Positions 3,310 through 61,520 are shown, numbered from the whole stretch's first letter. The stretch is 63,596 nt of DNA, filler included, from Stramenopiles sp. TOSAG23-6 (GCA_900128565.1; 14 parts of 14 records of this genome joined end to end with filler, not necessarily neighbours in it); one strand, 5' to 3'. The notes: generated from the letters alone by a model not told the origin. Numbers and translations: made by a program.

Positions 3310-5154
3310 TTAGGGCCTGTGTTTTCTTATTTTCATAATTTTACCAATACCAATAGTCTTCCCCTCGTCTCTCAATGTAAATCGACCCAGTTGTGGACAT
3401 TTTGCAAATGTTTCAATCGCAATACTTTGTTTCAATGAAATTTTGCACTTAATAACAGATTTAGACTTCACAAACATTGGCTTTCTTTTTGAGAATTTTT
3501 TAACTTTTAAATCCATTTCGCTCAATAATTCTTCAAAGGTACACTCTTCCGAAACAGTATGACAGTGAAGGATGCACTCATAACCTGATGTGATTAATTT
3601 ACGATGTTCCAATAATTCCAACACTTCAATAATTGCAATAAACTCGCGGCATGCTGGGGTAGGATCTTCAACAGAACTCAAAACAAAACCCTTATGAACA
3701 TCATTATCAGCAACACCCTTAAGTTTAACACGGACATTCTCTCCAGGTTTTGCAACATTACATTCCTTCATTACTTCACCACCATCGTCGACATACAACG
3801 AAATCACTTGAGTTTTTATGTTCATTGGCATAAGCATTAAGTCCATGCCACGCTTTAGTGTGCCACTTTCTATTTTACCCATTGCAATAACACCACGATC
3901 AAACATTTTGCCAAGAATTGGCATACGAAGACTTGCTTTTGGATCACGATTTGAAACTGGAATTTTATCCAATAATTCGATCAAAGAAGGTCCACGATAC
4001 CAAGGACATGTTTCTGCAGTCGCACGATCTTTCAAATTTTCTCCTGTCATGCCTGAGATAGGAACCCATTGAACATCACGCTTGAGACGAAATCCACATG
4101 AGTGTCTTAAAAATGGTTTCATTTTGGTTTGAATTTCTTCATATCGCGCTTTACTCCATTTAACAGTTTTTTCATCCATCTTATTAATTACAACAATAAG
4201 TTTATCAATACCTAATGTCTTTGCAAGCATAGCGTGTTCACGTGTTTGCCCAGCGCCATCAAAACCAGCCTCAAACTCACCACGACGAGCGGAAATGACA
4301 AGAATACCAACATCGGCCTGTGAAGCACCTTGAATCATATTTGGGACATAATTTTTATGGCCTGGGGCATCGAGAATAGTAAATCGCTTATTTTCAGTCT
4401 CAAATGAAGCACGACCAACTTCGACAGTCTTACCTTTTGCTCTTTCTTCCTCGTTTGTATCCATGATGAAGGCTAGAAACCAAGAATCACGATTTCGTTC
4501 TTTTGCTTCCCGTGTGAATTTGTCAATTACACGTTTATCCACCATACCTGTTTGGTATAATACGTTACCTGATATTGTACTTTTGCCAGCATCAACGTGG
4601 CCTATGAAGACAACGTTGAGGTGGTCACGAGGGTCTGAATCGTCTTCAATGATGATTTCTTTACGTACAGGTGTAGCTTTCTCTTTCTTTTTTTTCGCAA
4701 TTTTAACATCCTTCATTGTAGAGGTAACTTTGTCTACTTTACTTGGTGAAGGTGCTACGGGAGGAGATACATTGGTGGCAACCTTACTCTTGGGAGTAGG
4801 TTTTGGCGCAGCAGGTTTTGGTGCAGCAGCCTCGCCGGTGGGAGTAGGTTTTGGCACTGCAGGTTTTGGTGCAACAGGTTCTCCTCTCTTTAAAATTTTC
4901 GGTGGAGAATGTGTACTTTGCTGCTGAGGCTGTTGATATTGCTGTTGATAGGCATAGTTTGCTTGTTGACCATACTGCTGTTGATAGTGGCCACCGTAAC
5001 CACCGTTCTGGTCATACTGTTGGTTACCTTGTTGTTGATTGTAATATTGCTGCTGTTGCTGCTGGTAGTACGCCTGTTGAGCGTAGTACTGTTGCATTTG
5101 CTCTGGTGTGTATTGTTGGCTAGCATCTGCTTGATCTTCCCAAGAATCTGCCAT
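3310..5154 (-). CDS. SUP35: Eukaryotic peptide chain release factor GTP-binding subunit eRF3
   Basis: GHVDAGKST, GKTVEVGRA, DAPGHKNYVPNMI, NKMD, GRFTLRDEGKTI motifs; Q/Y/N/G-rich N-terminus. Confidence 0.97.
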   Translation of the reverse strand: MADSWEDQADASQQYTPEQMQQYYAQQAYYQQQQQQYYNQQQGNQQYDQNGGYGGHYQQQYGQQANYAYQQQYQQPQQQSTHSPPKILKRGEPVAPKPAVPKPTPTGEAAAPKPAAPKPTPKSKVATNVSPPVAPSPSKVDKVTSTMKDVKIAKKKKEKATPVRKEIIIEDDSDPRDHLNVVFIGHVDAGKSTISGNVLYQTGMVDKRVIDKFTREAKERNRDSWFLAFIMDTNEEERAKGKTVEVGRASFETENKRFTILDAPGHKNYVPNMIQGASQADVGILVISARRGEFEAGFDGAGQTREHAMLAKTLGIDKLIVVINKMDEKTVKWSKARYEEIQTKMKPFLRHSCGFRLKRDVQWVPISGMTGENLKDRATAETCPWYRGPSLIELLDKIPVSNRDPKASLRMPILGKMFDRGVIAMGKIESGTLKRGMDLMLMPMNIKTQVISLYVDDGGEVMKECNVAKPGENVRVKLKGVADNDVHKGFVLSSVEDPTPACREFIAIIEVLELLEHRKLITSGYECILHCHTVSEECTFEELLSEMDLKVKKFSKRKPMFVKSKSVIKCKISLKQSIAIETFAKCPQLGRFTLRDEGKTIGIGKIMKIRKHRP

Positions 5155-5522
5155 TATTTAAGCACGTTCCGCGCGATAGGGAATAGCTAATTGCTTATTA
5201 AAGCTACGCTTGATCCTCGTCACTGGTGGTCGTGTCCAAAAACCAGGTCCTGACTGGCTATTATTATTTTTCGGCCACGTGTATATATAGGCTAGGGTTA
5301 GGGCTTAAAAATTGAGGAGCAGGTCATCTCGATGTCATGTCAATCATCATTCACACACACACACATCATTTGATTGGACGAGATCCCGATCGAGATCATC
5401 ATTGCTCTCCTTTTGAAGTCGCCAGCAGACGACTTGAGAGAGAAGACGACAATCTATTTTGAATGAACTAGGGGCATACTTTGCTACAATATACAATTTG
5501 AGTTACTAGAAGACACAAACAT

Positions 5523-14835: not shown

Positions 14836-16481
14836 ATGAGTAAACGTGGGACAAATCAGACCGATGCTGTCACAGGAGATGGCCGAGACATAGAAAATGA
14901 TATCGCAAAATTACGGAAAGCGAATAAAGCACTGCGTCAACAAATGAAAGAATTGACAAACGCACTTCACGAATTAGCACTCAGTGACAAAGCTGCAAAC
15001 TCTAGTGAAATCCGTAAACTGGAACAAGCACACCGCAGTAAAGAAAAACAGATCCGTACATGTCTCAAAAAGATTAAAATTTACAAAATAGGCAACAAAA
15101 AGCTCAAGGCACAAGTGGATGCTTGCGTGGGTGATGACAAGTTGGTAGCAGTGGAAGTCCGGATTGCTGAAAAACAAGAAGAAATCAGAAAATTAAAACA
15201 GGAAAATAAATCTTTCATTTTCAAACAACGAGTGCTAGAAAAACGATTAGATGAATTAGAGTCAATGCAAGGTGATTGGCCTAATAAAATCAAAATGTTG
15301 ACAAAGGATATCGCCGTGTATGTTTTATTTTTTTTCAATTTCGAATTTATTTTTTTTCGTACGAAATTATGTACCTAACAAATTTTTTTTTGAAATATTT
15401 TTCCAAAATACATGTAAGTTTTTTTTCTCATTTTCCTCATTTTCCTCATTTTCACTATAACTTATTTTATTTTTTTGTACCAAATCCTAATTTTTGATAG
15501 TGTTATAAAAAACTGACGAATTCCAAAATATTTTTTTTTTTTTTACAATATATNTATAAAGAGCGTATAAAAAAATGTCGAGCACAGGAATTACGACAGG
15601 AACAAATGGCCGAGCGACAGCTCGTTCAGATGCAGGATTTATCAAAAAAAAACAGTGAACTTCGTGATGAACTTAAAAAACTTGGCTTTGAGGATGATTT
15701 GTATGTTTTTATGATGAACCCTAACCCTAATCAGAGTTATTTTTGTACCTAGTATTTGGTTTTGAGTACCGTTCATATGTATTGTTCATATTCATATTCA
15801 AATTTATTATTTGTTTTTGAGTTTGTACCGTTCATATGTATTGTTCATATTCAAATTTATTATTCAAGTTATTCAAATTTTTATTTAAATGTATTAAAAA
15901 AAATTAGAGCTAATTGCCAACAATTTTTTTTTAAATATTTCTCACAATACTTGGCGAAACGCAAACAGGAAAAAATAAATCGCGAATTGAAATGGAAAAA
16001 GGATAAAAGTCGTTTAGAAAAAGAATTGAGTGAAGTAACAGAGCGACAAAAAAGAGAACGATTGCAGAATACTAGTGAACTAAATGCAAAAATGGCTGAA
16101 ATGAGATCAGTTCAACGTAAAAAAAAGGAATTCGAAAACACACTAAAAGAAAAGGAAAAGGAAGTTCGTATGTACGGTTCCATTATGAATTTCTTTTCTT
16201 TTTCTTACTACGAAAATTCCGTACCTAATGATACTTTCTTTTTTTGAAATATTTCTTCACAGTGCAGGCAAGTTCTTCGATTAAAGCACTTGAAACGTCA
16301 ACTTCGACAACTTGCTCTAGTTCCATCACCAACAGCATCCAGACGCCCACCTCGCAATACTAGTAATTTTAAAAACAATCCTTTTGAAGAAGAGACTCCC
16401 AGCACGGAAGGCGTAAGTCCTACTCAAGACGTCCAACAAGACGAAGAAGAAGAACAAAATGGGGAAATGGATTATTTGTAA
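14836..16481 (+). CDS. Coiled-coil protein, multi-exon (introns 15318-15553, 15701-15952, 16172-16267)
   Basis: Removing these introns gives a continuous coiled-coil frame ...KDIAV|YKERIKK...EDDL|AKRKQE...EVRM|QVLRLKHLKRQLRQ. Confidence 0.75.
15318..15413 (+). mobile_element. Introner-like intron, GT...AT, directly abutting a second intron (15414-15553)
   Basis: Full consensus element followed immediately by GTAAGT. Confidence 0.8.
15701..15952 (+). other. Diverged family intron, GT...TT
   Basis: TT|GTATGTTTT...AAATATTTCTCACAATAC-TT; frame restored; contains an internal duplication and CCCTAA repeats. Confidence 0.75.
16172..16267 (+). mobile_element. Family intron with canonical GT...AG ends
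   Basis: AT|GTACGG...GTACCTAAT...GAAATATTTCTTCACAGTGC-AG; AG occupies the NN position. Confidence 0.8.
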
Positions 16482-17369: not shown

Positions 17370-18510
17370 CTACACATTCGAATAACCGACAGTGCGATTG
17401 TTAATCAACTTTTGAATATATCGAACTTGGAGATACGTAACAAGTATTACAGTGAAGCTTTCAGCATGTATTGTATAACAATATAAATTACAATTTGAAA
17501 CTTGTGAGTGTTTGTGATGCAAAACAAAGTAAATATGAAATTCATGATGAAAGCAAACATTCAAAAAAAAAAATCATTAGGTACAAAATTTCGTACGAAA
17601 AAAAAATAGGTAAAACGTACAATCGTCCACCAAAAAACATCACGATTATTTTGTTCTTGCACATCTGAGTGATTATCGACTCGCATTCCCATATATTTTG
17701 TAGAGGTATATAGAGTATCTATTTGCCAATTTAATCTGCGTAATACTTCCTTTGTAGGTTCTAAATGTTTTTTTTGCAAGTATTGTACAATAATATTTCA
17801 AAAATTCGATTTTGTTTGTTAGGTACAAAAGTTACTATGAAAAAATTTAGACAAAAAATTGAAATGATAAAAAAATTTTAAAAATCTAAAAAAAAATCTT
17901 AGGTACAAAATTTCGTACGAAAAAAAACCATAAATTCGAAATTGAAATTATTAATAAAAACGTACAAGGTATCTTCTAATGAAGTCGTTGGGTCAATATC
18001 AACCGCAAAAGTCACCCGCTTTAAGGCTCGTGAACCAAAACGGTTCTCAAAACAAAACCTATATACGCCAGCTTGTTTTGCAACAATAGAAAATTTATCC
18101 TCGGAAATGTATAGTTTTGATTCATACATAATATTCTCTTTGGTCGTATCTCCTGGGCCATATGCTTTAATCTTTAAATCTCGATTCCCACCAGCAGTGA
18201 CAAAAAATGCTCCATGAATATCCATTGATTCGAGCGGTTCAGCTTGATATAAAACACCATTAAACAACTGAACATCTTCACTAATACATACATCCTCGCC
18301 ATACGGAATATCAAAAGTTAGAATATGAGACGGAGAAAACCTGGGCTCATGAATATTTCCTGATAACTTTGTTAGGCCATTTATGTCAACTGGGACATGC
18401 TCACCTTGAGGAACTTCTACAAGAGCCGTAGAAGCAGCACTTGCCCCATATAAACGACAACTTAAGCTAAATAGGAACAATACTACTGCGATATTCAATT
18501 GATAGAACAT
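17370..18510 (-). CDS. p24/emp24/TMED family cargo receptor; introns 17778-17965 and 17466-17620
   Basis: Signal peptide, GOLD domain (GVYRFCFEN), coiled coil, NNRDVFWWTI|AESF TM segment, YLQVRYI. Confidence 0.9.
17466..17620 (-). mobile_element. Family intron, GT...AT
   Basis: ATT|GTACG...CAATAC-AT|GCTGAA yields the p24-typical WWTIAE. Confidence 0.85.
17778..17965 (-). mobile_element. Composite family intron, GT...TT
   Basis: Two internal TTTTGTACCTAA motifs; TT duplicated at both junctions; joins EDTL|QKKHLEP. Confidence 0.8.
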
Positions 18511-26263: not shown

Positions 26264-27472
26264 TTATTTACTCAAGATTTGATGTTTCACGTTTTCTCTT
26301 TTTACTCAACATTTCTTCTAAAGTAGGTAACAAAATGTCTAATGATTTCATAGTAAACTCTGGAGTTTTTTGTTCATGTATTTTAGAAAAATATTTCAAA
26401 TTTTTTTTTGAAAATTTGTTAGGTACAAATTTTCGTACGAAACCAAAAAAAAAAAATCAATTTCAAATTTTAAAAAAAAAAATAAAACATACATCACTCG
26501 AAGAGTCACTGACAAATTCAGATAACTCATTTTCATTTGTTGCACCAGACATCACTAATATAGTTCTGAAACCTCCTCTATTTCCAAATAACATATCCGT
26601 GTCTAATCGATCTCCAACAAAAACAACGCGATTTGGATCTTTGGGAAGATTAAATTTTTTTTTTGTTAAATTTGCTAAATTTAATGAAGGTTTGCCACAA
26701 ACAACAGGATCGACTCCCCCTGCGATGTGTACAGCAGAGACTATACTGCCACCACCTGGAACGAGTGGACCATTTTTTAATAGAGGTGAAGCGGCATCAG
26801 TGTTTGTGGCAACAAAATAAGCTTTACCATATCGAAGATACATGTATTGTGAAAAAATATTTTTTTTTGTAAAATTTCTTAGGTACAAAATTTCGTACGA
26901 AAAAAAAATTTAGACAAACAATTTGAAATTCAAAACATAAAACATACATGGAGGCTTTGTGTAATTTACCATAGCAAAAACTCCCATCAAATCCAACAAC
27001 AACGCCAGAAACATTAGGATTCATATCTTCGAAACCCCATGACTTGACATCATCAAAATTTTTATTTTTGTCTTCTAACCCAAGAGTGACGAAACCATCC
27101 GATTGAAGAGTTTTATGTAAACCTTCTTCACCAACAACATATAAAGTACTACCCGCTGCAATTTTTTCTTTGACATGCCGAGAAGCAGCCATTGCAGAAG
27201 ACATCAAATCACTTTCTCTTACCTCTATTCCTAAATGCTTAAACTTTGCCTTAAAATCAGCGACTGTTTTAGTGCTATTGTTTGTCACATAACTTACANA
27301 CTTNCCNANTTTTTTTNANTGCTNCGACAACTTTATCAGATCCATTGATAACTTTAAGACCAGTCCATATCACTCCATCACAATCAAAGACAAAAGCATC
27401 TATGCTATTAATCAAATCGCAAATAACATCTGATTGGTCTTTCAATAAAGTTTTAGGCGGGACCATTGGCAT
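26264..27472 (-). CDS. PGP: HAD-IIA phosphoglycolate/4-nitrophenyl phosphatase; introns 26842-26947 and 26376-26492
   Basis: FDCDGVIW, VTNNS, FVATNTD, CGKPS, VGDRLDTD; frame break only within the N-containing stretch 27299-27325. Confidence 0.92.
26376..26492 (-). mobile_element. Introner-like intron, GT...AT
   Basis: Joins SSD|EQKTPEFTMKSL, a HAD-IIA C-terminal P.F...SL motif. Confidence 0.85.
26842..26947 (-). mobile_element. Introner-like intron, GT...AT
   Basis: Joins KASM|YLRYGKAYFVATN. Confidence 0.88.
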
Positions 27473-32420: not shown

Positions 32421-33237
32421 ATGATCATATCCAACTCTGCAATGTACGTGATATGTTTGAGGAGCAATAACATCTTGAATCACTGCACTTAAAACAGGAT
32501 CATTTGTATCCGTTTCAGCGACAGTTGTAAAATGAGAAAAATCTGCAGTTACTTTCATTTCTGGAAAGAGTGGGAGAATATCGCGACTTAACCAAGGTGA
32601 ATGTATTTTGGAAAAATATTTCAAAAAAAATCTAAAATTTTTTGTTAGGTACAAAATTTCGTACGAAAAAAAAAACAATTAAATTAGAAATTCATATAAA
32701 ACATACATGAAGATAACGTTTACGATGGTGTTCATGGCAAACATTTGTATATCCTCCCGATGTCCCCGATTTCTCGAATTCGAGAGCTTTTGAAAAAAAT
32801 TCTGTAGCTTGGTCAAATGTGAAGTAGTCATTTCCTGAATGTGAGTTAATACGAATTGGATTGAATTCTTGAGCAGCTTCAACCTGTGATTTGAAGACGT
32901 CAAGATGTGACTCTACACTAGAATCAGGACGTGGGTGTCCTTTATAAGGTCCACCGCACACGAGACCTAACTCACATCCAGGTGCAACTGGACCATCTGT
33001 GAAAATATGGAAATTTATTTTCAAGTCATAGTCTGACAACAATTTTTTGACATTTTCTTTTCCTTCTTGCTCAACTAATTTATATGGAACTTCTATTCCA
33101 TCATAGCCTAAGTTTGCTACAGCTGCGACTGCCTGCTTTAAAGACTGAAATTTTGAACCTGCAAGTACTCCATCAGTTGTTGGAAGAACGCCCCACATAC
33201 TTCGAAACATTAAAAGCCTCATTATACGTGATATCAA
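32421..33237 (-). CDS. Sugar-phosphate isomerase/epimerase-like TIM-barrel protein (3' truncated); intron 32601-32706
   Basis: GYDGIE, INSHSG.D, HEHHRKRYLH|SPW, TADFSHF..VAE, H.H.RVG motifs. Confidence 0.85.
32601..32706 (-). mobile_element. Introner-like intron, GT...AT
   Basis: Full consensus; joins RYLH|SPWLSRDIL. Confidence 0.9.
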
Positions 33238-45422: not shown

Positions 45423-48400
45423 ATGAACATGAGTTCTCTAGGTACAAAATTTAGTACGGAAAAAACAAATAATGTCGAACAAAATACAGAAGTCAACCCT
45501 AACCCTAATGTTGATAATAACCCTAACCCTAATGATAATGAACGTCTAGATATCAAAAATGATTGTCCATTTTTTGAAAAAAAACAAAAAAAACAAAAAA
45601 CATATCTTCAAAATCTTCAAAATCAACAATATAAAAATAGTCAAAATACAGCATTTGATATATCACAAAGATCCACAGCTGTACTGTATGTTTTTTTTTT
45701 AAATTTGAAATTGAATTTGTTTTTTTTTTTTTTTTNNNNNNNNNNNNNNNNNNNNNNNNNNNNNNNNNNNNNNNNNNNNNNNNNNNNNNNNNNNNNNNNN
45801 NNNNNNNNNNNNNNNNNNNNNNNNNNNNNNNNNNNNNNNNNNNNNNNNNNNNNNNNNNNNNNNNNNNNNNNNNNTTTTTTTTTAAAATTGAAATTTAATT
45901 TTTTTTTTTTTTTTTTTTGGTAAAAAAATGTTGTACCTAACATTTTTTTTTTTTTTTTTGAAATATTTTTCCAAATTACATGTACGAAATGGATGGTTAC
46001 CCTAACCCTACGAAATTAAATGTACAAGAAAGTAAAACGAATGTGTCACGAGGGTTAGGGTTAGGGTCACGAGGACATTTGAATACTAAACACTCAAAAG
46101 TGGATCGTGTACGTTTTCAATTTTTGTTTTTTTTTCGTACGAAATTTCGTACCTAACGATTTTCATTTTTTTTTCATTTTTTTTTTTCATTTTTTTTTCA
46201 TTTTTTTTTGTTTTTTTTCGTACGAAATGTTGTACCTAACAATTTTTTACTACAATTTTAAAAAATATTTTCTAAACAGTACATCAACGTCATCCTATTT
46301 CAAGCTTCACTGCAGACGCGCGTAATTTATCTTTTATATCACCAAGCCCAACTCCAGTCCTTCTACATCGAAAACGAGTTAACCCTAACCCTAACCCTAA
46401 AGAAGATGTTTCAAATAGACTCTCTAATCCTAAAGAAGATGTTTCAAATAGTCTGTATTCTAGTATTTCTACTAATATTTCTAGTATGTCTTTACAAGAT
46501 AATGAAACACAAAAATCACAAAATATTGACAACATTGGCAAGAAAGATCAAATCCTACTAACTCATCAAGGATCTCAAAATAATACTGTTCATTCACAGT
46601 TAAATTCTACTATAAAAACACTTGAGAGTGCATCAAAAGCAGCATTAATAAGAACAAATACATTGAAAAGAAATCTAGACAAAAACAATATACAAAATTA
46701 TTCAAGAGTAGAGACTATTAGTACTACTACTACTACTAATAATAATATTCATACTACTACTACTACTAATAATAATAATACTACAACAAATACAAATAAA
46801 TATCTCACAAAATAATAGTTCAAATATTGATACTGAAGTCATCTTTAGGTCGCAAACGCAATATGAAATGAGATCTACACAACAATACAACCCTAACCCT
46901 AACCCTAACCCTAAAAAAAACACACTGAACTCAACTGCTATCCCTAACCCTACAGAGATATATCAAGATATTGAGAAAAAATCAAAACGTTCTCGAATTG
47001 TCCAAAAAGTAGGTTTTCAAAATTGATTCTTTTGTTTCGAAAAAATTTCAAAAAAAAGTTGAAATTTTTTTTTTTAACATTTTTTTAACATTTTTTTAAC
47101 ATTTTTTTAACATTTTTTTAACATTTTTTTTACATTTTTTTTATATTTTTTTAACATTTTTTTAACATTTTTTATACAAAAACGTTTAGCTTATATATAT
47201 ATATTTCTTTTACACTATTTTCACAAAATACAGGTACTTCAGAGTTGGAAACATGTATGTTTTTTTTTTTTTTTAATGTATTAATTTTTTTCGTACGAAA
47301 TTTTGTACCTAACAACTTTTTTTTTTTTTTTAATATTTTTCCAAAATACATGGCAGGCTTCGGAACAATATTACAAATCAACAAAAAACGAGCCCTAACC
47401 CTAGTGGTAGTGTCCAACAAACTGCACATTCAATTATAGAAAACTATCAGGAGCAAAAACATTCTCCAGCAAACCCTAACCCTATTTCAAAAAATATCGA
47501 CAATCATTCAGTAAAAACACGAAATAAATCTTTGAACAAAACGTTGAATCCAAACAATACAAAATTTTATATGCCAGCGTATCACAAGGGGTTAGGGTTA
47601 GGGTTAAAACGAACAAAAAACCAAATAACAATTCGACCATTTTCAACACCAACGGAGATGAATCCCAATCCTAATAACCCCAACCCTAATAACCCAAATC
47701 AATCAAAGCATCAAAATCATCCTTGTTCAACTAACCCGAATAACCCTAACCCTAAATTTCAACAACAAAATGAGCAAAACTTTCAACAAATTCTTCATCA
47801 TTATTCTTCTGTACAACATAACAAAAATGATGGACATGTACGTTTTATATGAATTTCTAATTTAATTTTTTATATGAATTTCTAATTTAATTTTTTTTTT
47901 TTTGGTTTTTATAAAAATTTCGTACCTAACAAATTAAATTTTTTTTTTTAAATATTTTTTCACAATACATCCTAATTATAAATCCTTAAGTAACACTTTA
48001 AATATTGTGTCGCCTTTTGTAACTGAAAAAATAACAGAAAAAATAACAGAAAAAATAACAGAAAAAAAAAACAGAAAACCCTAACCCTAAGGGCGACATT
48101 CGAAATGTGTTAATACACCCTAACCCTAGATTAAATACACATTCAACTTCAAGTGAGAAAGAAGAGTTTAATCGTGTTAAATTGGATAACTATTTACGTG
48201 TATCGCGCGGGTCACGTACAACAAGCCGTAACCCTAACCCTAATCGTGTTAGCCATATATCTGCAGCAACTGCTGTGGCTGCAGCAGCATCTGCTGCTCG
48301 AAATAAAGAATTTGAAAAAACATCTACAACACGAAATAAAGAATCCTTCCATAGGATTTCGACGCCGTATTTGTTAAATACTAGGACAAACTCTACAAAT

Positions 48401-48532
48401 AATACTACTATAAATAATACTACTACAAATACTACTACAAATAACAATACTATAAATAATACTACAAATGATAATAGTATAAATAATACAAATGATAATA
48501 TTATAAATACTACTATAAATAATACTACTACA

Positions 48533-48570
<38 letters not shown>

Positions 48571-48913
48571 AAATAATACTACAAATAATAATAATAATAA
48601 TACTACAAATAATAATAATAATAATACTACTACAAATAATAATACTATAAACTTTTCAAAACCAAATGTAGGTCATTCTATTCCAATTGTTCAAAGTGAA
48701 ACTAAAAATGAAAGTGATACTACAAATAAAAGTGATTTAATAGACAATGTGGAAAAAAATAAAAAACAAACGTCAAAAACACGAAATAAAAGAAGCTCAA
48801 AAAATAAACGGAGTAAATCAAAAAATAAAACATCCAAAAAAACACGAAAAATGAGTTCAAAGACGTCTCGATCATCAAAAGCCAAAAAGAAAAAGTCAAA
48901 ATCTACGAAATAA
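45423..48913 (+). CDS. Low-complexity Asn/Thr-rich multi-exon protein (structure approximate)
   Basis: Successive ORFs separated by family introns near 45686, 46109, 47009, 47255 and 47838; many NP repeats. Confidence 0.45.
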
Positions 48914-51475: not shown

Positions 51476-51773
51476 TGTAAGGAAATATGTCAAAAATTTC
51501 AAAAATGTTTGTTAGGTATGAAATTTTTTTTTGAAATTAAAAAAAAATAAAAAAACAACAATCATTGCTTGGGTACACATCTTTACAAAAAACATTTAAA
51601 AAAAAAAAAANNNNNNNNNNNNNNNNNNNNNNNNNNNNNNNNNNNNNNNNNNNNTTAATTAATTAANNNNNNNNNNNNNNNNNNNNNNNNNNNNNNNNNN
51701 NNNNNNNNNNTTTTATAAAAAAATAAATTCGATTTTTTTTTACCGGAAAAAAAAAAAAAAAAATAAAACATAC

Positions 51774-52964
51774 ATAGTACATGCTATAATATAACTTTGT
51801 CCTGCTTCAAGTCCATTTAATCCTGCATATATGTAATACGAAAAATATTTCAAAAAAAAAATTACAATCTGTTAGGTACACACTTTCGTACGAAAACCAA
51901 AAAAAAAAAATGATGAAAACGTACATGTTGATTGAATTCGTGCAGAAGATACCGAGAAGACACGTATTGTGAAAAAATATTTCAAAAAAAAAAACTTAAA
52001 TTTGTTAGGTACGAAATTTCGTATGAAAACCAAAAAAAAAAAATTAAATTAGAAATTCATATAAAACATACACGCATATACAAAATAGAATGGGCCCAAA
52101 TCAACCAAAATACCATTTGAAGTTGAAAAATATTTAACAGGAAATCCCAAGTAGCTAAATGGTTGAATGATCACATCTATAATTGCAGCTAAGTGATGCC
52201 CGGCAGGGAAGGAAATGTATATTGTGAAAAAATATCTTTCAAAAAAAAACCTTAAATTTGTTAGGTACAAAATTTCGTATGAAACCAAAAAAAAAATAAA
52301 TTTGAAATGAATGATGAAAACGTAGATGAGTCGAACCACCCGTTGTAAAATAATAACAGAGTAGTGGCAAAGAAGCAAAGCCAGGCAAGATGATCTTATA
52401 GCGCCATCTAAGTTCTAATACATCATCTGCAAATCCAAGAAATAACATGAATGTGATAGAAGCCAAAGCTGCGTTATACGCTGCTAGCTCCTCATGAGAA
52501 CGAGCAAAAGCACAGCCCATTAGAGTTACACAAATGAGATATACTGTGCCACAAACAATTCCCAAAGACTCCGCAACTTTAACTTTTTCTTTTGACGTTC
52601 CACGACGACCAAGATCATAACCCCAAAGATTTGCACGAATCAACATCAATTTTATTTGAGGAATAATTTGAACAGTTGATATATACGAAAAAGTACATAA
52701 AAATAACACACAAAATATTTTTGTATTTCGACCACGAAAATCTCCATCTTGATCAAAATATACAGTACCACGTGACCATAACTGTACTAACAATACCATT
52801 GGCAATATTAAAGGTCCAAGGATTGTAATATATTGAAACGTCGAGCACATACTGTTTGACATAGAAAAAGAAACATTTGAAATATCTGCTGCTAACTTTT
52901 CTTTTTCTACCTTTTTATTTGCAGCTGTTTTACGAGATCTCAGTTCCAAATTAGGATTTACCAT
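51774..52964 (-). CDS. DPAGT1: UDP-GlcNAc:dolichyl-phosphate GlcNAc-1-phosphotransferase (3' truncated); introns 52217-52325, 51962-52071, 51831-51924 and one starting at 51773
   Basis: VAESLGIV, FLGFADDVLELRWRYK; spliced product [35 protein letters not shown]. Confidence 0.95.
51831..51924 (-). mobile_element. Family intron, GT...AT
   Basis: Removal restores the conserved [13 protein letters not shown]. Confidence 0.92.
51962..52071 (-). mobile_element. Family intron, GT...GT
   Basis: Removal restores [11 protein letters not shown]. Confidence 0.9.
52217..52325 (-). mobile_element. Family intron, CT...AC on the sense strand
   Basis: CAT|CTACGTTTTCATC...GTACCTAAC...CACAATAT-AC|ATTTCC joins GGSTH|ISFP. 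Confidence 0.75.
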
Positions 52965-53409
52965 GGAAAGACAACGGTCTTCTATTGGAGATGAATGGTA
53001 CTACTCGGGTTCTTATTATGTGTGCTAATAATCAATTCGATGCTTATTGATGCGAGGTGCAACGTGATTGTATTCTGCTAATGCTATTTTTGGACTGTAG
53101 ACCTATATTATAATATTACGTCTTCACATGAAATCGTAAGTTTTGTTGTTTACGTTGTTTACACCACGTATAACTACGAAGTAGCAAAATTTAATGAGAT
53201 GACGATGACATCATTGTTGAATCTCAAATCATTTTGAAATTTTTGATTGATTTTTGTTTTCGAGATTTCGTGTTTCGGAAATATTAGTCATTTTCAATTT
53301 CGAGTTGTCTTTTTATGTCTTTTTTTATTCGTAATTATTCACAAAAAACACGACTTCTTTTACTTCTTTTACTTCTTTTACTTCTTGCAGGCATTAACTT
53401 GACTAAACA

Positions 53410-54477
53410 ATGTCTTTCCCTTGGAATGAAAATTCAGCACCAGCTCCTGTTCGAGGTGCGCGACGTGGTCGAGGAACAAATGAAGCTCCGACTTCACTAT
53501 GGGGTCCACCTCCTGCTCAGTCAGAAAATAAATCGAGGGGTAATCCTTCACAGAGGACTCCACCACCGTGGGGTTTAGACCAAACAAAGTCTCCAACTTT
53601 GACACAAGCACAAGTGCTTCATCAAAGACAACATAACCAACACGCAAAACTTACCAATGAACCTAAAAGTTTTGCACGTGAAGAGTTTGTCGCACAGACT
53701 TCAAATGTACCTCTTCCAAAAAAGTTTGAAATACCTGAAACTTTTCCCGAAGAAGAGCAGCGTTTGGTCGCGGATATGATGAATAATGGATATGAAGAGG
53801 CACAGATTATCGAAGCTATTATGGATCTGCGAGAATCGTTAAAGGCTCAACTGCGAAATTGGCAGGCGAACGAAAACGAACGCGGGAGAAACAAATTACG
53901 CGAGGGATCTCAAGAAATGTTCGCAAACTCTTCGCAGAATCAGGGCCAGATGAACGTCTCCCCTCCAGAATTAACACATCAAAGTGTGAATTCCGGTAAA
54001 CAATCTCGGAGTGATATATCGGCTCCTTGGGATAGAGAGGAAAAGATTCGTCCTGGAATTCGCAGAGTGTCTCGAAACAGGAGAGAAACTGCTCCATTTG
54101 CAGTTGATGAAGAAAACCTCAAGACGAATGGCACACAACACGTCAATCGTGGAAATACCAACGGCATAATGCAAAATCAAAAACGAGATCGTCGGACACT
54201 AAAAATGCAGCGAGATGATAAAGTTAAAGCACGCGAGGAAGGGAGTAAGATGTACGTTTTCATAATTAATTTCAATTTTTCTTTCATACGAAATTTTGTA
54301 CCCAATTATTTTTTTTTTGAAATGTACGTTTTCATTTAAATGTCCAAACTTTAAAACAATATTTTTCTAAAATTCAGATGTGCTGGAGGTGTCGTCTGGC
54401 AGTCAGCTGCACGGGATTCAAATGATGCAGCGCGGGCAACAAGAGAGAGAAATATGGGAACAACCTCGCTTTGGTAA
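53410..54477 (+). CDS. Hypothetical protein; GT-AG family intron 54252-54377
   Basis: Spliced frame ends ...GSKI-CAGGVVW...MGTTSLW*. Confidence 0.6.
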
Positions 54478-54774
54478 AACAATTTTTATTGATATTATCA
54501 AATAACCGGGGGGAACTCCCCGCGGGGGGAGGGTAAATTTATAAGTTATTATTCAAATTTGAGTTATATAAGAGAGTCATCCGCTCTAAATAAAAAATCC
54601 ACCGCAAGGCAAACATACTATTATTTCTCTCCCTTGTTGCTCGCGATGATCCATGAAACTACCTATGAATCCAATAGCAAATATCATTGGGGTGCTAGCA
54701 ACGGGATTTGGATGCACCTGCACCGACGATCAAAGTTGAGTATTATCTTGAAGGACATTTTTTAGGTTTAAAAN

Positions 54775-56622
54775 TTAAATATAGTGGGTACTCGAAACAA
54801 GAGTTGGATACACTTGTACCGAGGATAAAAGTTGAGTGTTATCTTGAAGAATCTCCTCTGGGCTATGTAAACTGGAGCCAATAACTTCAGTGCCCCAACG
54901 ATATACATCACCTTTCTGAGTAAGAATCAAATTGCTCGTACTACCGGCTGATATTTCAGTCACATTTTTTTCATTCAAAGATAAGACTTCAGTAGGAATC
55001 ATTCGCCTGGAAAAATCTCCCACACCTAGTTGACCATCACCACCCATACCGAAGCTATATACAGTTCGACATTCTTCTGTTAACACAAGGCTGTGATCAC
55101 TGCCTGCACTTATTTTTCTGATGGATGTTCCTTGTAAAGTTTCTATTTCAACTGGAAATAATTTATTTTCTCCTTCTTTTACACCATCCCCATGCTCAAC
55201 AGATCCGTGACCAAGTTGTCCATCAACTCCATAACCCCAAGAAAAAACTCTACCAGGAACTCCTTCCGATGATGTGCCAATTGCTAGACTGTGATATCCA
55301 CCAGCGCTTACTTGAGAAAATGATCTCTTTGCCATACTTTCGATCCGTTTTGGTGAAAGCACTTTTTGTGTATCACCGTGGCCCAATTTACCAGCAAAAC
55401 CTGAACCCCACGAAAAAAGAAAACCTTGATCTTCAAATCCACGGATAAAAGAGTGTTTCTGGGAAGCTATCGCAAGTGTGTGATTGCCACCAGCAGAGAT
55501 CTGTTCAACATTGTAGTCTTGAAATCCAGGAATAAACGTAGGACTTAAACGTGTGTTCTCATCGCCAGTACCTAATCTGCCTGACTTACCTTGACCAAAA
55601 CTAAACACAGTTCCATTATCGAACAAAACAACACTATGGACTGTTCCTGCACTCACTTGTGTTGCTTTGCGACCTTCAATATTTTGGATAACAGTGGGCT
55701 CTTCCCGATCATCAGTATCTCCATGTCCCAGTTGGCCAGTAAATCCATCACCAAAACTAAACACGTCTCCTGTTGTTGATAAGAGCAAAACATGGAAAGC
55801 ACCGACACTTACTTGCACAACTAAAGACTGACGGAGAGAAGCAACCACGTTACACACGGCAAAGCTTGGAAACAATTCAGGTTTGCCTTCGCGGTTGGCG
55901 TCAAGATCGCGTTGTTGTTGCAAAAGTAATAGTTGCTGCCGAAGAAATTGTCGACGTTCTTGGGGTTTTCCTCCTCGGACCGAAGAGTTACTATCAATCC
56001 CGAAAACTGAATGAACGTCACCATTCACATTTAACACTAGATTTTTGTGAGCGTCTCTAGATCCACTACCAGATGATATTCGACACTCGGGTGAATGAGA
56101 GAGTTTTTTGTTTTGTCGAGACACAAACTCTATTTCACTGAGCCAATGAGGCCACGACTTAAAGTTCCCTTTTGATAACCAAAATGTTTCTGAAAGAATA
56201 TCACGCGCACGATCACAACATGCGAATTGAATAAGTTTTTCTTCGAATAAAGAACACACGATCGGTATTGAACGCAGCTCATCAACTGTCATAAATGTGA
56301 GAACTTTCACGATCATATCTTCGCCTAGCGGGAAGGATGAACTCGTTTCCGACACACTTGAAAAGTCATGCTTCTTCGAGGCTAATGAAATAGATCGGGA
56401 AAATGCAGGTAAGGGCTTTCGAACACGTAAACGTTTCTTTTGGGTACTATATAGTATACTTTTTCTAACTTTGAAAGAGGCGAACTCGGAATATTTTTTC
56501 TGACCGAGCGCATCATACGGGGATCTACCTTTTTTTTTGTTTTTGAAATCATTCTGTTTACTCTCTACCAAATCCGATAGACGACATGGATATGAACACG
56601 ACCTACGGAAGCCACTACTCAT
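54775..56622 (-). CDS. RCC1-repeat (UVR8/HERC-like) protein with possible F-box-like N-terminal motif
   Basis: Multiple (V/I)SAG..H....G.V(F/Y)S(F/W)G.G..GQLG.G repeats; LGEDMIVKVLTFM motif. Confidence 0.88.
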   Translation of the reverse strand: MSSGFRRSCSYPCRLSDLVESKQNDFKNKKKGRSPYDALGQKKYSEFASFKVRKSILYSTQKKRLRVRKPLPAFSRSISLASKKHDFSSVSETSSSFPLGEDMIVKVLTFMTVDELRSIPIVCSLFEEKLIQFACCDRARDILSETFWLSKGNFKSWPHWLSEIEFVSRQNKKLSHSPECRISSGSGSRDAHKNLVLNVNGDVHSVFGIDSNSSVRGGKPQERRQFLRQQLLLLQQQRDLDANREGKPELFPSFAVCNVVASLRQSLVVQVSVGAFHVLLLSTTGDVFSFGDGFTGQLGHGDTDDREEPTVIQNIEGRKATQVSAGTVHSVVLFDNGTVFSFGQGKSGRLGTGDENTRLSPTFIPGFQDYNVEQISAGGNHTLAIASQKHSFIRGFEDQGFLFSWGSGFAGKLGHGDTQKVLSPKRIESMAKRSFSQVSAGGYHSLAIGTSSEGVPGRVFSWGYGVDGQLGHGSVEHGDGVKEGENKLFPVEIETLQGTSIRKISAGSDHSLVLTEECRTVYSFGMGGDGQLGVGDFSRRMIPTEVLSLNEKNVTEISAGSTSNLILTQKGDVYRWGTEVIGSSLHSPEEILQDNTQLLSSVQVYPTLVSSTHYI

Positions 56623-56993
56623 ACTGAGATAGAATAGTACACAATGTCCCCTTTGAGATCAATGAGATAGATAAAATATCTTTAAAACCAGTGAAGAATT
56701 CGAATTGTGTTTTCTTTTTACTGGTACAGGACTGCATAAATGCCATTCTACGTCATTCATTAATTTTGAAACAATTTGAAACGTTGAATTTTCGTAGAAT
56801 TCGTGTTTTCAAATAATCTGAAATCGCGAAGAAGAAGGAAAATGTCGTCATATGACAGCAAGAAATTTTTTCATTGGCTTGACACAGACATTGCCGATTG
56901 GATTGACCACCAGATAGATTCTTTCACCACTTTGTAATAAGTCTTTATTTATTACACTCTTGAAGCATTCACACCAATTTTAAAGATTGACTT

Positions 56994-58055
56994 ATGAGCA
57001 AACTACTTTCAAGCAAAATGATTACGCTTCCTCCGACAAAAAATGATACTAAAAGTTACGCATTACACCTTAACAACGTAAATGTTTTTGATGCTATCAT
57101 AAGAGTTTTATCCAGTGTCGATGTAAGTTCTGATGCCAATCTCTTTGCTGTTCCACTGCTATACCATGCAGTTGCTGCCGATGAAATTGATGGCGTTCGA
57201 ATGCTTTTAAATCGGTGTAAATTTGACATTAACAGGAAGGTTGAAATTAAGAACCTAGTTCAAGGTTACACTGCACTTCACTTGGCAGTTGATCAAGTAC
57301 ATCCCGAAATTGTGTCAGTCTTGCTTTCCCACGGCGCCACAGTCGAAACTAAAACGAATAGTGGTCACCTCCCTCTCAACATTGTAAATATCCCTTATTA
57401 CCCAATGTTGTTTTCTACTTTTCAAATATTATGTCACCTTTTTCTCATTCTTATTACAATTTGTCACTTTAAAAATTTACATGCAGCAATTCGAGGAAAT
57501 GTTTCAATCGTCGAAATGCTTTGTAGATTTGGTGCCAAAGTAAATGCAAAAGGATCACATGGAAATTCCCCTTTGATTGATGCAGCAGAAGCTGGTAACA
57601 TTAAAAGTGTTGAGTATCTAATCAAAAATGGTGCGAATATTCATGCGCAAAACGACTCCGGAAGCACAGCCTTAATCCGTGCAGCGTTCTGTGGTTACTT
57701 CAAAATTGTTTATTTTTTATTACTTAACGGAGCAATTGTAGATCACCAAGATAATATTGGTAATACTGCTCTGATGAAAGCTGTCATCAAAGCTCAAAAC
57801 GTTGAGGTCATTAAAATACTTTATAAATTTGGTGCGTGTAAACATATCACGAATAAATATGGCAACAGTGCTTTGAAAATAGCATTAGAAGACCAAAACC
57901 AGTTCATCGTAAGAGTTTTATCTGAAAGTTGTATGATTTATTTTTTTTTTTACAGAAAAATCGAATTTATTTTTTTCGTACGAAATGTTGTACCTAACAA
58001 TTTTTTTTTTTTTTGAAATATTTTCCTAAAATATAGACGTGATATTGTTGAATCA
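56994..58055 (+). CDS. Ankyrin-repeat protein (3' truncated); introns 57384-57482 and 57931-58036
   Basis: GYTALHLA, GHLPLNI|AAIRGN, GNSPLIDAA, GSTALIRAA, GNTALMKA. Confidence 0.9.
57384..57482 (+). other. In-frame 99-bp intron GT...AT lacking the internal family motif
   Basis: The 33 inserted codons split an ankyrin repeat; removal gives GHLPLNIAAIRGN. Confidence 0.85.
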
Positions 58056-60425: not shown

Positions 60426-61520
60426 TTATGAATGAATGTAAAACATTAACATAAAAATAATTTGTAGCAAAATATTGTATTACAATGTATGTTAATTGCA
60501 AAATTGCACTATGCCATTGAACACAAAAGATCAAATGTCAAACAATTAAGAGATAAACTAGTCGACTTAAATTCTAAATTGACTCGATGCGATGTATGTT
60601 TTTTTTTTTTTCAACAAAAAAATTGATTTTTTTTTCGTACGTAATTTTGTACCTAACAATTTTTTTCAAATTTTTTTTGAAATATTTTTCCAAAATACAT
60701 GTACGAATTTTTAATGAATTTGCGAAACGTAGTAACAATATAAAATATGGAAGTCCTCCAAATTTAATTTCAACTCAGATGCGTTTTAAAAAAGGTGTTT
60801 CTTCAAGACGTTCAAAAAGTTCTAGAAGCTCAAAAAGTTCAAAACTTTCAAAAAGTGTAAAATATCGAAATAAATCCAAAAAAATATGATTTTTTTATTC
60901 TGGAACATACCTGCTCGAATTACTCTCTCTGAGACTGAGACTGAGAGAGTCATTCTGGGTAAGAAATCATCGATGAAAAGAAAAACAAGATAAAAAAAAC
61001 AAAAAAAACAAAAAAAACAAAAAACGTTGAATTTTTAAAAAATTGAATATAATAAAATCTTCAAACAAAAATTTCAAGACTTTTTTCTGTTTCAGTAGAA
61101 AATTTATTTTCAATGTTTACAATTTTTTAATTAGGTACAAAATTTCATACCAAACAAAAATTGTTATCCTATACTTTACATTATTTAAAAGTAGTTTATT
61201 GTTCCATTTTATCATCATTATCATCATCATTAATAAGATGTTGGTCCACATCATTTGTTTTGAAGAAATATTTCAAAAAAAAAAAAAATTAAATTTGTTA
61301 GGTACAAAATTTCGTACGAAAAAAAAAAAATATTTCAAAAAAAAAAAAACTTAAATTTGTTAGGTACAAAATTTCGTACGNNNNNNNNNNNNNNNNNNNN
61401 NNNNNNNNNNNNNNNNNNNNNNNNTTAATTAATTAANNNNNNNNNNNNNNNNNNNNNNNNNNNNNNNNNNNNNNNNNNNNTTTTTTTTTTTTTTTTTTTT
61501 CGTGTAAAAAAAAAATTACC

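What the first reader, a model, noticed from the sequence alone, without database searches (positions are those of the whole stretch)
51774..52325. Essential DPAGT1 gene split by four elements in 550 bp with CT-AC, GT-GT and GT-AT ends
The three complete introns (109, 110 and 94 bp) are not multiples of 3. Exact removal rebuilds the conserved [20 protein letters not shown] motif across exons of only 37 and 57 bp. DPAGT1/ALG7 catalyses the first step of N-glycan synthesis and is normally essential, so these non-AG introns are very likely removed in vivo. This is the best single locus for testing the system.
Basis: partly seen in the sequence, partly recalled or inferred. Interest (0 to 1): 0.85.

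Follow-up and report, generated by a model that had tools for sequence, protein, structure and literature searches.

The report
Mobile non-AG introns splitting DPAGT1
The gene for the first enzyme of N-glycan synthesis in a marine protist is interrupted by copies of a ~100-base repeated, transposon-like intron that has to be cut out exactly although it never ends in the near-universal AG.

Summary
A DPAGT1/ALG7 gene lies on the minus strand (ATG at 52964). Segments of 109, 110 and 94 nt separate it into exons, two of them only 37 and 57 nt. Removing exactly these segments restores the spacing and active-site motif that are invariant in homologues. No GT-AG pair does this.

The segments are copies of one dispersed, gene-oriented, MITE-like "introner" family, with about 44 copies in this 63.6-kb window. 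The consensus is GTAYGTTTT ... GTACCTAAC ... T-tract ... AAAATAC plus a 2-nt flank repeat.

- The termini CT-AC, GT-GT and GT-AT are each only one of several registers the protein allows.
- The fourth element is only a 63-nt 5' stump, cut by an artificial contig joint. The C-terminal ~180 residues are missing from the window.
- No spliced RNA could be recovered for this locus.

The public gene model of the locus forces canonical introns and deletes the catalytic motif.

This scan had already flagged the same intron family on other pieces of this genome. The closest precedents are Fritillaria, Amoebophrya and classical introners. I found nothing in print for this lineage.

The parts
52326..52964 (-). 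DPAGT1 exon 1 (ATG at 52964; 213 codons, includes the FADDVLELRWRYK Mg-site region)
   Evidence: Open frame. PDB human DPAGT1 E 3e-20. 54-63% identity to P0001/P0002. An exact 151-nt contig (52544-52694) is present in a seawater RNA library.
52217..52325 (-). Intervening element A, 109 nt. It starts CTACGTTTT where the family has GTAYGTTTT. The register may slide -2..+4: AT-AT, TC-TA, CT-AC, TA-CA, AC-AT, CG-TT or GT-TT.
   Evidence: A 109-nt excision gives the best global score against P0001/P0002 (806/753, against 792-797/739-742 for 103, 106 or 112 nt). It also keeps the invariant T-x4-P spacing. Registers are listed. 88% identical to element B.
52260..52268 (-). Branch-site-like box GTACCTAAC of element A, 43 nt before the last excised base
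52072..52216 (-). DPAGT1 exon 2 (145 nt; variable loop and start of the next membrane helix)
   Evidence: tblastn to P0001/P0002. 95% match to public model P0145.
51962..52071 (-). Intervening element B, 110 nt. A 5-nt direct repeat CGTGT at both ends gives six equivalent cuts: CG-TA, GT-AC, TG-CG, GT-GT, TA-TG, AT-GT.
   Evidence: 87% identical to the copy at 32706-32603.
52004..52012 (-). Branch-site-like box GTACCTAAC of element B, 42 nt before the last excised base
51925..51961 (-). DPAGT1 exon 3, 37 nt (..[11 protein letters not shown])
51831..51924 (-). Intervening element C, 94 nt. An AT repeat at both ends gives AT-AC, TG-CA or GT-AT.
   Evidence: Removal rebuilds the contiguous [19 protein letters not shown] motif.
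51871..51879 (-). Branch-site-like box GTACCTAAC of element C, 40 nt before the last excised base
51774..51830 (-). DPAGT1 exon 4, 57 nt ([19 protein letters not shown] + AT)
51711..51773 (-). 5' 63 nt of a fourth copy (GTATGTTTTAT...), cut off by the end of the contig
   Evidence: In semi-global alignment, 62-90% of its 63 bases match the 15 other copies (10 of 15 at 81% or more, e.g. 90% to 32706, 81% to 35821). Sequence.
51611..51710 (.). Artificial joint N44-TTAATTAATTAA-N44 between unrelated contigs. It is not part of the gene.
   Evidence: The same spacer recurs about every 6.45 kb and then every 1.1 kb. An EF-hand gene lies to its left.

Best explanation
The DPAGT1 gene is functional. 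It is interrupted by three full copies and one truncated copy of a ~100-nt MITE-like introner that has spread through the genes of this AT-rich marine protist. A source label on the identical public gene model points to a MAST-3-type stramenopile.

Each copy carries its own signals:
- a 5' splice-site-like end (GTAYGT);
- a small palindrome followed by a branch-site-like CTAAC box;
- a T-rich tract.

The unit removed from the pre-mRNA is the element (GTAYG...TAC) plus one copy of a duplicated 2-nt flank, usually AT. Excision is therefore scarless. The 3' cut falls 40-43 nt after the box, at AT, GT, AC or similar, and not at AG.

Shown here: the anatomy, the copy number, the orientation bias, the frame rule and the protein register.

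Inferred: that removal happens at the RNA level, by a U2-type spliceosome that does not require a terminal AG.
For: **At this locus**
- Exact removal of 109, 110 and 94 nt is required by invariant homologue spacing.

**The family**
- A profile built from 13 copies finds 49 hits, which merge to 44 elements in 63.6 kb.
- Orientation relative to flanking ORFs: 32 sense, 5 antisense, 7 unclear of 44. One 'antisense' call (26844-26947) is really sense, because the HAD-phosphatase domains lie on its strand.
- All frames through the element are closed in 17 of 17 full copies.

**The frame rule**
- Excising element+2 nt joins the dominant flanking frames in 12 of 15 copies that could be judged.
- With 99-nt flanks, a frame is open after +2 in 11 of 17 copies, after +1 in 6 of 17, and after +0 in 3 of 17.

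**Flank repeat**
- The 2-nt flank is identical on both sides in 14 of 17 full copies: 11 AT, and one each of GT, CT and TT.

**AG inside the elements**
- Of the 11 rule-fitting copies tested (12 without 40574), 5 contain no AG at all, 3 have AG only out of frame, and 1 has an in-frame AG followed by stops. Only 2 have an in-frame AG with an open tail.

**Other genes**
- The same elements split conserved domains in other genes: emp24 profile positions 3-98 | 110-160, and the HAD Hydrolase_6 | Hydrolase_like exons.

**Conserved blocks**
- These are GTAYGTTTT, TTTTCGTACGAAATTTTGTACCTAAC, and GAAATA-TTTTT-C..A.TAC.
Against: - No spliced RNA was recovered. Four seawater RNA libraries gave one exact exon-1 contig, one upstream contig and hundreds of contigs on the repeat itself, but no joint across A, B or C. 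One contig runs from exon 4 into element C unspliced (X2 record 9, 3 differences in 102 nt).
- Element A breaks the family rule by 2 nt. It needs 109 nt, not 111. Its first base is C where the family has G.
- In-frame GT-AG alternatives exist: -24 nt for A, +33 nt for B, +42 nt for C.
- Most flank repeats are AT, which could equally be part of the inverted termini.
- The gene is incomplete in the window.
- No snRNA or splicing-factor gene could be examined.
Confidence: 0.75

Rival explanations
1. RNA-level excision that does not use the spliceosome, guided by pairing of the intron ends. This is what has been proposed for euglenid and hemistasiid nonconventional introns.
For: The termini ATGTAT...ATACAT are inverted repeats. 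The minimum-energy fold closes the two ends in 3 of 8 copies folded. The terminal dinucleotides vary.
Against: Folds are weak: z from -0.01 to -2.43, and A, B and C give -0.47, -0.17 and -0.01. The ends of A and C are not paired in the best fold. The family keeps a GTAYGT end, a CTAAC box and a T tract. According to PMC11282704 (passages seen), euglenid nonconventional introns lack a polypyrimidine tract.
Confidence: 0.08
2. Canonical GT-AG splicing inside or around the elements, as in the public gene model. This would give a DPAGT1 variant with an 8-codon deletion and 11- and 14-codon insertions.
For: In-frame GT..AG pairs exist: 52321..52189 (-24 nt), 52071..51995 (+33 nt, open tail) and 51920..51869 (+42 nt). 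The public model P0145 uses such sites.
Against: These products break spacings that are invariant in 17-19 homologues. They also split or delete the FCTN..NGLE active-site motif. Family-wide, 9 of the 11 rule-fitting copies tested have no usable in-frame AG.
Confidence: 0.05
3. The elements are removed from DNA, as ciliate internal eliminated sequences are, and the assembly shows an unprocessed form.
For: They are short, AT-rich, precisely bounded and flanked by a 2-nt repeat.
Against: The strong sense-orientation bias (32 of the 37 elements that could be classified) and the splice-signal-like blocks are expected for RNA recognition, not for DNA excision. The flanks are AT, GT, CT or TT, not TA. 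From general knowledge, no germline/soma split is known in stramenopiles.
Confidence: 0.05
4. This copy is a decaying pseudogene, and an intact paralogue does the work.
For: The first base of element A is C instead of G. The gene is incomplete here. The assembly is fragmentary.
Against: All four exons are open and highly conserved, including the 37- and 57-nt ones. The same elements sit in dozens of other conserved genes. No second copy is in the window. No near-identical protein of 374 residues or more was found in the protein collection.
Confidence: 0.04
5. They are U12-type (minor spliceosome) AT-AC introns.
For: With AT flanks, the register AT...AC is possible for C and for most family members. 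The box CCTAAC faintly recalls the U12 branch consensus, which I quote from memory.
Against: The 5' end is (AT)GTAYGTTTT, not ATATCCTT. The box lies 40-43 nt from the 3' cut, far beyond the short distance typical of U12 introns (recalled). B has no AT-AC register, and A has none at 109 nt.
Confidence: 0.03

Closest known systems
Introner elements of Micromonas pusilla and Aureococcus anophagefferens (MITE-like, transposon-derived spliceosomal introns; review PMC11282704, passages seen)
   Same: Many near-identical short copies lie inside unrelated genes and are co-oriented with them. They have short inverted termini and a short flank duplication. One splice site is carried by the element and the other falls in the duplicated flank, so excision is scarless.
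   Different: Those families splice at canonical GT/GC-AG with a 3-nt duplication. Here the duplication is 2 nt and the 3' end is AT, GT, CT, TT or AC, never AG, at the register the protein requires.
Non-canonical MITE-derived U2 introns of the tunicates Fritillaria borealis and F. pellucida (PMC13326754, sections 4 and 21 read; Henriet 2019 seen only as cited there)
   Same: Non-AG 3' ends dominated by AT/AC. A pyrimidine-A-pyrimidine triplet closes the intron (CAT or TAC here). Transposon-like origin. A T-rich tract is kept.
   Different: Fritillaria's main classes start with AG (AG/AC, AG/AT) and are highly diverse. Here there is one family with a near-perfect GTAYGT start. The host is a protist, so any likeness is convergent. 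Fritillaria's duplicated U2AF and changed snRNA methylation could not be examined here.
Introner elements / non-canonical introns of Amoebophrya (PMC7789003, passages seen)
   Same: A marine protist with repeated introns that carry direct repeats across the exon/intron borders plus inverted repeats. The termini are non-canonical and variable. Gene finders are misled.
   Different: Amoebophrya repeats are 3-5 nt direct and 8-20 nt inverted, have no common terminal signature, and lie in a GC-richer genome (nuclear cox genes 54-58% GC in the passages seen). Here the 5' end, the internal box and the 3' block are strongly conserved, and the DNA is about 33% GC.
Nonconventional introns of euglenids and hemistasiid diplonemids (PMC12621601, sections 3 and 5 read)
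   Same: Non-GT-AG ends. Short repeats at the borders. Possible pairing of the intron ends.
   Different: Here the ends are A/T-rich with a GTAYGT consensus, and the CTAAC box is found in every one of the 13 aligned copies. Those copies were chosen through that box, which is an ascertainment bias.

Membership tests
DPAGT1/ALG7 (UDP-GlcNAc:dolichyl-phosphate GlcNAc-1-phosphate transferase) | Sequence similarity to solved DPAGT1 and to Pfam Glycos_transf_4 | tested here: met
   Human DPAGT1 chains at E 3e-20 with exon 1 alone. Exon 1 alone scores 24 bits on PF00953, below the 27-bit cut-off. The public model of the locus carries PF00953.
DPAGT1/ALG7 (UDP-GlcNAc:dolichyl-phosphate GlcNAc-1-phosphate transferase) | Contiguous FCTN-x-IN-x-x-x-G-x-NG-L/V-E motif | tested here: met
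   The motif is rebuilt only across exons 3 and 4 after the 94-nt removal. It is contiguous in all 17 homologues in which it was located and in the human enzyme.
DPAGT1/ALG7 (UDP-GlcNAc:dolichyl-phosphate GlcNAc-1-phosphate transferase) | Complete protein, including the C-terminal half (about 180 residues) | tested here: inconclusive
   Only residues aligning to about 1-291 of P0001 are in the window. The contig ends inside the fourth element.
Introner elements (transposon-derived spliceosomal introns) | Many similar copies inside unrelated genes | tested here: met
   44 elements in 63.6 kb. Copies lie in DPAGT1, emp24, HAD phosphatase, a Myb-like gene and others.
Introner elements (transposon-derived spliceosomal introns) | Co-orientation with the host gene | tested here: met
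   32 sense against 5 antisense, with 7 unclear.
Introner elements (transposon-derived spliceosomal introns) | Target-site duplication and terminal inverted repeats | tested here: inconclusive
   The 2-nt flank repeat is present in 14 of 17 copies, but 11 of these are AT. Of the 6 copies with a non-AT upstream flank, 3 match downstream. The inverted termini are only about 5-8 nt (GTAT.TTTT / AAAATAC).
Introner elements (transposon-derived spliceosomal introns) | Removal from mRNA by splicing | not testable with these tools
   The only read-laying job returned no joint over A, B or C. No protein in the collection spans the junctions correctly.
Introner elements (transposon-derived spliceosomal introns) | Canonical GT/GC-AG termini (as in the classical families) | tested here: not met
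   No GT..AG pair reproduces the homologous junction. 5 of the 11 rule-fitting copies tested have no AG at all.
Fritillaria-type non-canonical U2 introns | Y-A-Y triplet as the last three intron bases and just upstream of the 5' cut | tested here: inconclusive
   In the GT...AT register the last triplet is CAT in the 13 of 17 copies whose downstream flank is AT. The upstream triplet is CAT or TAT in 8 of 17. B has CGT on both sides.
Fritillaria-type non-canonical U2 introns | Duplicated divergent U2AF and altered snRNA methylation | not testable with these tools
   No genome is held. Only one tRNA was found by Rfam in the window.
U12-type AT-AC introns | 5' ATATCCTT-type end, with the branch box close to the 3' end (consensus recalled, not from a call) | tested here: not met
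   The 5' block is GTAYGTTTT. The box ends 40-43 nt before the cut (coordinates).
Euglenid-type nonconventional introns | Stable pairing of the intron ends, and no polypyrimidine tract | tested here: not met
   The ends are paired in the best fold of 3 of 8 copies. z ranges from -0.01 to -2.43. T tracts are present in all aligned copies.

The most novel reading that the evidence does not exclude
This stramenopile's spliceosome no longer reads the terminal dinucleotides. The 3' cut would be placed by the element itself: a fixed position about 10 nt after the CAC/CCA block, 40-43 nt after the CTAAC box, and so inside the duplicated target dinucleotide. Every new insertion would then be born scarlessly spliceable, whatever two bases it duplicates.

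The first base need not be G either. Element A has C at the family's G position and element 40574-40477 has T there, and both sit in intact frames.

In a gapless alignment, A differs from its relatives at exactly three end positions. In the GT...AT register these are the terminal positions +1, -3 and -1. In the AT...AC register they are +3, -1 and a synonymous exon base. This may be a covarying pair of intron ends.
Probability: 0.35. Interest if true: 0.85.

Novelty: new variant of a known kind. Interest (0 to 1): 0.7.

Why it matters
- **The GT-AG rule.** Why nearly all eukaryotes keep this rule is an open question. Only a few lineages are known to have abandoned it (Fritillaria, Amoebophrya, euglenozoans). 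An independent case in a stramenopile is a new natural experiment on how the 3' splice site is chosen and how transposons create introns. Here a single, well-conserved element keeps a textbook 5' site and branch box but ends in AT.
- **This locus as a test.** It packs three complete copies with three different end types into 550 bp of a conserved, normally essential enzyme. The expected junctions can therefore be predicted to the base.
- **Annotation.** Published gene models for this assembly are wrong wherever the element occurs. P0145 loses the catalytic motif. This probably depresses gene counts and completeness estimates for the lineage.

Tried and rejected
**RNA evidence**
- The look-up of sequencing runs gave four seawater metatranscriptome runs holding 5-12% of the sampled words.
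- Read laying showed no joint across A, B or C. It gave one exact exon-1 contig, one upstream contig, and 384-503 repeat-only contigs in each of three runs. This neither supports nor contradicts splicing.

**Protein collection**
- No full-length or partial protein of this species spans the junctions correctly. The only hit to exon 2 is the mis-spliced public model.

**Other collections**
- Two metagenome contig scans found nothing: one with exon-1 peptides and one with the 25-nt element core.
- No whole genome is held. A second ALG7 copy, snRNAs and U2AF could therefore not be searched.
- Rfam on the window found one tRNA only.

**RNA folding**
- Eight copies gave no significant structure.

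**Organism guesses dropped**
- I first suspected a Fritillaria-type tunicate and then a diplonemid. Both were dropped when the window's eRF3 and DPAGT1 proved identical to protein models labelled GSMAST32 in EukProt, with oomycetes among the next named hits.

**Literature**
- Eight searches found no paper on non-AG introns in MAST or Incisomonas lineages.
- The two MAST single-cell genome papers contain 0 mentions of 'splice'/'non-canonical' (PMC5778133) and 0 of 'intron' (PMC8163842) in the passages searched.
- Their supplements were not read.
- Gawryluk 2016 is not held.

Full report
**What is there**

The window is AT-rich eukaryotic DNA, about 33% GC. It is built from separate contigs joined by N44-TTAATTAATTAA-N44 spacers. 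The spacers recur about every 6.45 kb and, from 58056 on, every 1.1 kb.

The contig 51711-58055 starts inside the flagged region. A DPAGT1/ALG7 gene begins on its minus strand at ATG 52964.
- Exon 1 (213 codons) matches the solved human enzyme at E 3e-20.
- It is 56-63% identical to two full-length relatives, P0001 and P0002, which share its N-terminal extension.
- tblastn with these relatives finds four exons in order and nothing of the last ~180 residues anywhere in the window.
- The piece to the left of the spacer encodes an EF-hand protein.

So the gene is cut by the end of its contig, inside a fourth copy of the element.

**Checking the observation**

The intervening segments are 109 nt (52325..52217), 110 nt (52071..51962) and 94 nt (51924..51831). 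The internal exons are 145, 37 and 57 nt.

I built candidate spliced forms in a script and compared them with homologues.
- *Segment A.* A 109-nt removal scores best against P0001/P0002: 806/753, against 792-797/739-742 for 103, 106 or 112 nt. It also gives the G-x-T-x4-P spacing. That spacing is found in all 19 homologues where the anchor could be located, out of 24. 17 were found by regex. P0002 and P0003 were checked by eye, because the regex took an earlier T. The human enzyme has the same spacing.
- *Segment B.* Removal keeps Y-x6-FCTN.
- *Segment C.* Removal rebuilds the uninterrupted FCTN..NGLE motif. Both features are present in all 17 homologues in which the motif was located.

Every frame through each element is closed, in 17 of 17 full copies in the window.

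- B is flanked by a 5-nt direct repeat. Six cuts give the same mRNA: CG-TA, GT-AC, TG-CG, GT-GT, TA-TG and AT-GT.
- C has an AT repeat, giving AT-AC, TG-CA or GT-AT.
- For A, sliding a 109-nt window from -2 to +4 gives T-H-I-S, T-H-L-S or T-H-L-P. All are compatible with the spacing rule. The termini would be AT-AT, TC-TA, CT-AC, TA-CA, AC-AT, CG-TT or GT-TT.
- None of these registers ends in AG.
- A systematic list of in-frame GT..AG pairs contains no pair that reproduces the homologous junction. The nearest are -24 nt (A), +33 nt (B) and +42 nt (C). Each breaks an invariant spacing or the active-site motif.

**What the segments are**

They are copies of one repeat family.
- The core GTACCTAACAAA (up to 2 mismatches) occurs 43 times, against 8.2 +/- 2.7 expected.
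- A profile from 13 copies finds 49 hits, which merge to 44 elements.
- The consensus on the coding strand is GTAYGTTTT, then a variable T/A-rich stretch, then TTTTCGTACGAAATTTTGTACCTAAC, then a T tract, then GAAATATTTTTCCAAAATAC.
- A and B are 88% identical. B is 87% identical to a copy in another gene at 32706.
- Copies sit at many contig ends, presumably because they break the assembly.

Three properties point to introns rather than inert insertions.

1. *Orientation.* 32 elements lie in the sense of a flanking long ORF, 5 antisense and 7 unclear. One 'antisense' case is a mis-call, because the conserved HAD domains are on its strand.

2. *A frame rule.* Excising the element (GTAYG..TAC) plus 2 nt joins the dominant upstream and downstream frames in 12 of 15 copies that could be judged.
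   - The 12 are B, C, 32706, 26492, 12654, 47255, 47838, 60594, 59576, 26947, 17965 and 40574.
   - The 3 misfits are A, 17620 (whose 3' anchor is uncertain) and 15318.
   - Five further copies were not judged because their flanks or ends were unclear.
   - An automatic control with 99-nt flanks gives an open frame after +2, +1 and +0 nt in 11, 6 and 3 of 17 copies.

3. *Conserved domains are split and resume in register.* emp24 profile positions run 3-98 | 110-160, and the HAD exons run Hydrolase_6 | Hydrolase_like.

**Flank repeat and AG content**

The 2 nt on either side of the element are identical in 14 of 17 copies: 11 AT, and one each of GT, CT and TT. Of the six copies whose upstream flank is not AT, three match downstream. 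This fits a 2-nt target duplication with a preference for AT, though AT could also belong to the inverted termini.

Of the 11 rule-fitting copies tested for AG content, five contain no AG at all. Only two have an in-frame AG with an open tail. The non-AG end is therefore a property of the family, not of this gene.

**How it most likely works**

The element brings three things:
- a consensus 5' site (GTAYGT);
- a CTAAC box behind a small palindrome;
- a T tract.

The box ends 43, 42 and 40 nt before the last excised base of A, B and C. An AG 10-15 nt after the box, where present, is skipped.

I infer U2-type splicing in which the 3' cut is set by the element's end (TAC plus the duplicated dinucleotide) and not by AG. 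This makes each insertion scarless.

Element A deviates in a way that may be informative. It has C at the family's first G. By frame, it needs 109 nt and not the 111 the rule predicts. If its 3' end is aligned without a gap (CACAATATAC against CACAATACAT), it obeys the rule and differs only by substitutions at the intron ends. A second copy (40574..40477, in a Myb-like gene) starts TT and is in frame under the rule.

RNA folds are weak and do not consistently pair the ends. A structure-guided, spliceosome-independent mechanism is therefore less likely. A U12-type reading fails on the 5' block and on the box-to-end distance.

**What is not shown**

Splicing itself is not shown. The single read-laying job, on four seawater RNA libraries holding 5-12% of the sampled words, returned:
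- one exact 151-nt contig inside exon 1;
- one contig upstream of the ATG;
- hundreds of contigs on the repeat alone;
- one contig running from exon 4 into element C.

There was no joint over A, B or C. The protein collection holds no correctly spliced product. Two metagenome scans found nothing, and no genome is held. A second ALG7 copy, DNA-level excision and the make-up of the spliceosome therefore remain open.

**Public annotation**

The only hit to exon 2 is P0145, labelled GSMAST32.ASY1.ANO1.1719.1 in EukProt.
- It is identical in exon 1.
- It is then spliced at forced canonical sites. It drops ISFPAGHHLA and the whole FCTNSIN exon.
- It translates the tail of element C and the start of the fourth element.

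The eRF3 model of the same set (P0026) has spurious deletions relative to the continuous ORF of the window, which a Logan contig matches at 100%. The label and the oomycete next-hits suggest a MAST-3-type stramenopile. This is my reading of a source label.

**Comparison with what is known**

The anatomy is that of introner elements (review PMC11282704, passages), but without their AG. The non-AG ends and the closing pyrimidine-A-pyrimidine triplet recall Fritillaria (PMC13326754, sections 4 and 21). Fritillaria, however, has diverse AG-starting introns. The border repeats recall Amoebophrya (PMC7789003, passages), which lacks any terminal consensus. Hemistasiid introns are G/C-rich at the ends (PMC12621601, sections 3 and 5).

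Eight literature searches found nothing on such introns in MAST or related lineages. The two MAST genome papers do not mention them in the passages searched. Supplements were not read.

**Earlier notes of this scan**

After I had reached this reading, the index showed that the same family had been flagged on many other pieces of this genome. Two follow-ups state that mRNA shows exact excision at AT or TT ends. I could not check that here, and I treat it as a lead, not as support.

**Verdict**

It is a new variant of a known kind: transposon-derived, non-canonical introns.

This locus is a good test case because of its density and its three end types. Two handicaps apply: the gene is truncated by the contig end, and the register of element A is unresolved.

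Noticed in passing
window 6376-62588 (20 spacer sites, e.g. 51611-51710): The window is a chain of contigs joined by N44-TTAATTAATTAA-N44. The pieces are about 6.45 kb and slowly shrinking, then about 1.1 kb from 58056 on. Features that cross a spacer are artefacts. Most contig ends fall inside a copy of the element.
   Followed up: partly
P0145 and P0026 (public models of window 51711-52964 and 3310-5157): The public gene models of this assembly force canonical introns. The DPAGT1 model loses its catalytic motif and translates intron sequence. The eRF3 model has invented introns inside a continuous 615-codon ORF.
   Followed up: partly
window 40477-40574 (-): This copy begins TTATG instead of GTATG, in a Myb-like gene. 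Excising element+2 nt (100 nt) still gives an open frame over 150+150 nt. It is a second copy in the window, besides element A, without G at the family's first position.
   Followed up: partly
window 17780-17965 (-), 46109-46272 (+), 61257-61381 (-): Composite or tandem copies with two GTACCTAAC cores each. The first is excised as one 188-nt unit, in frame, inside an emp24/GOLD domain.
   Followed up: partly
window 45995-46070 and ORFs 46276-48913 (+): Short telomere-like repeats (CCCTAA / TTAGGG) face each other in a short stretch between two elements. The neighbouring ORFs are full of NPNPNP runs, which is how that repeat reads in one frame.
   Followed up: no
window 37703-37777 (-): tRNA-Thr (TGT). 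It is the only Rfam or ARAGORN hit in the window.
   Followed up: no
window 15411-15750 (+): Directly after the element at 15318-15411 (+AT) comes GTAAGTTTTT and a long non-coding stretch. Neither +0 nor +2 excision opens a frame. It may be a second intron abutting the first.
   Followed up: no
window 51840-52324, runs X1, X2, X4: Between 384 and 503 contigs per seawater RNA library match the element at 90% or more. They diverge into unrelated sequence exactly at its ends (loose ends at 52324 and 51961-51972). So the repeat unit is abundant in these libraries, as RNA or as carried-over DNA.
   Followed up: no
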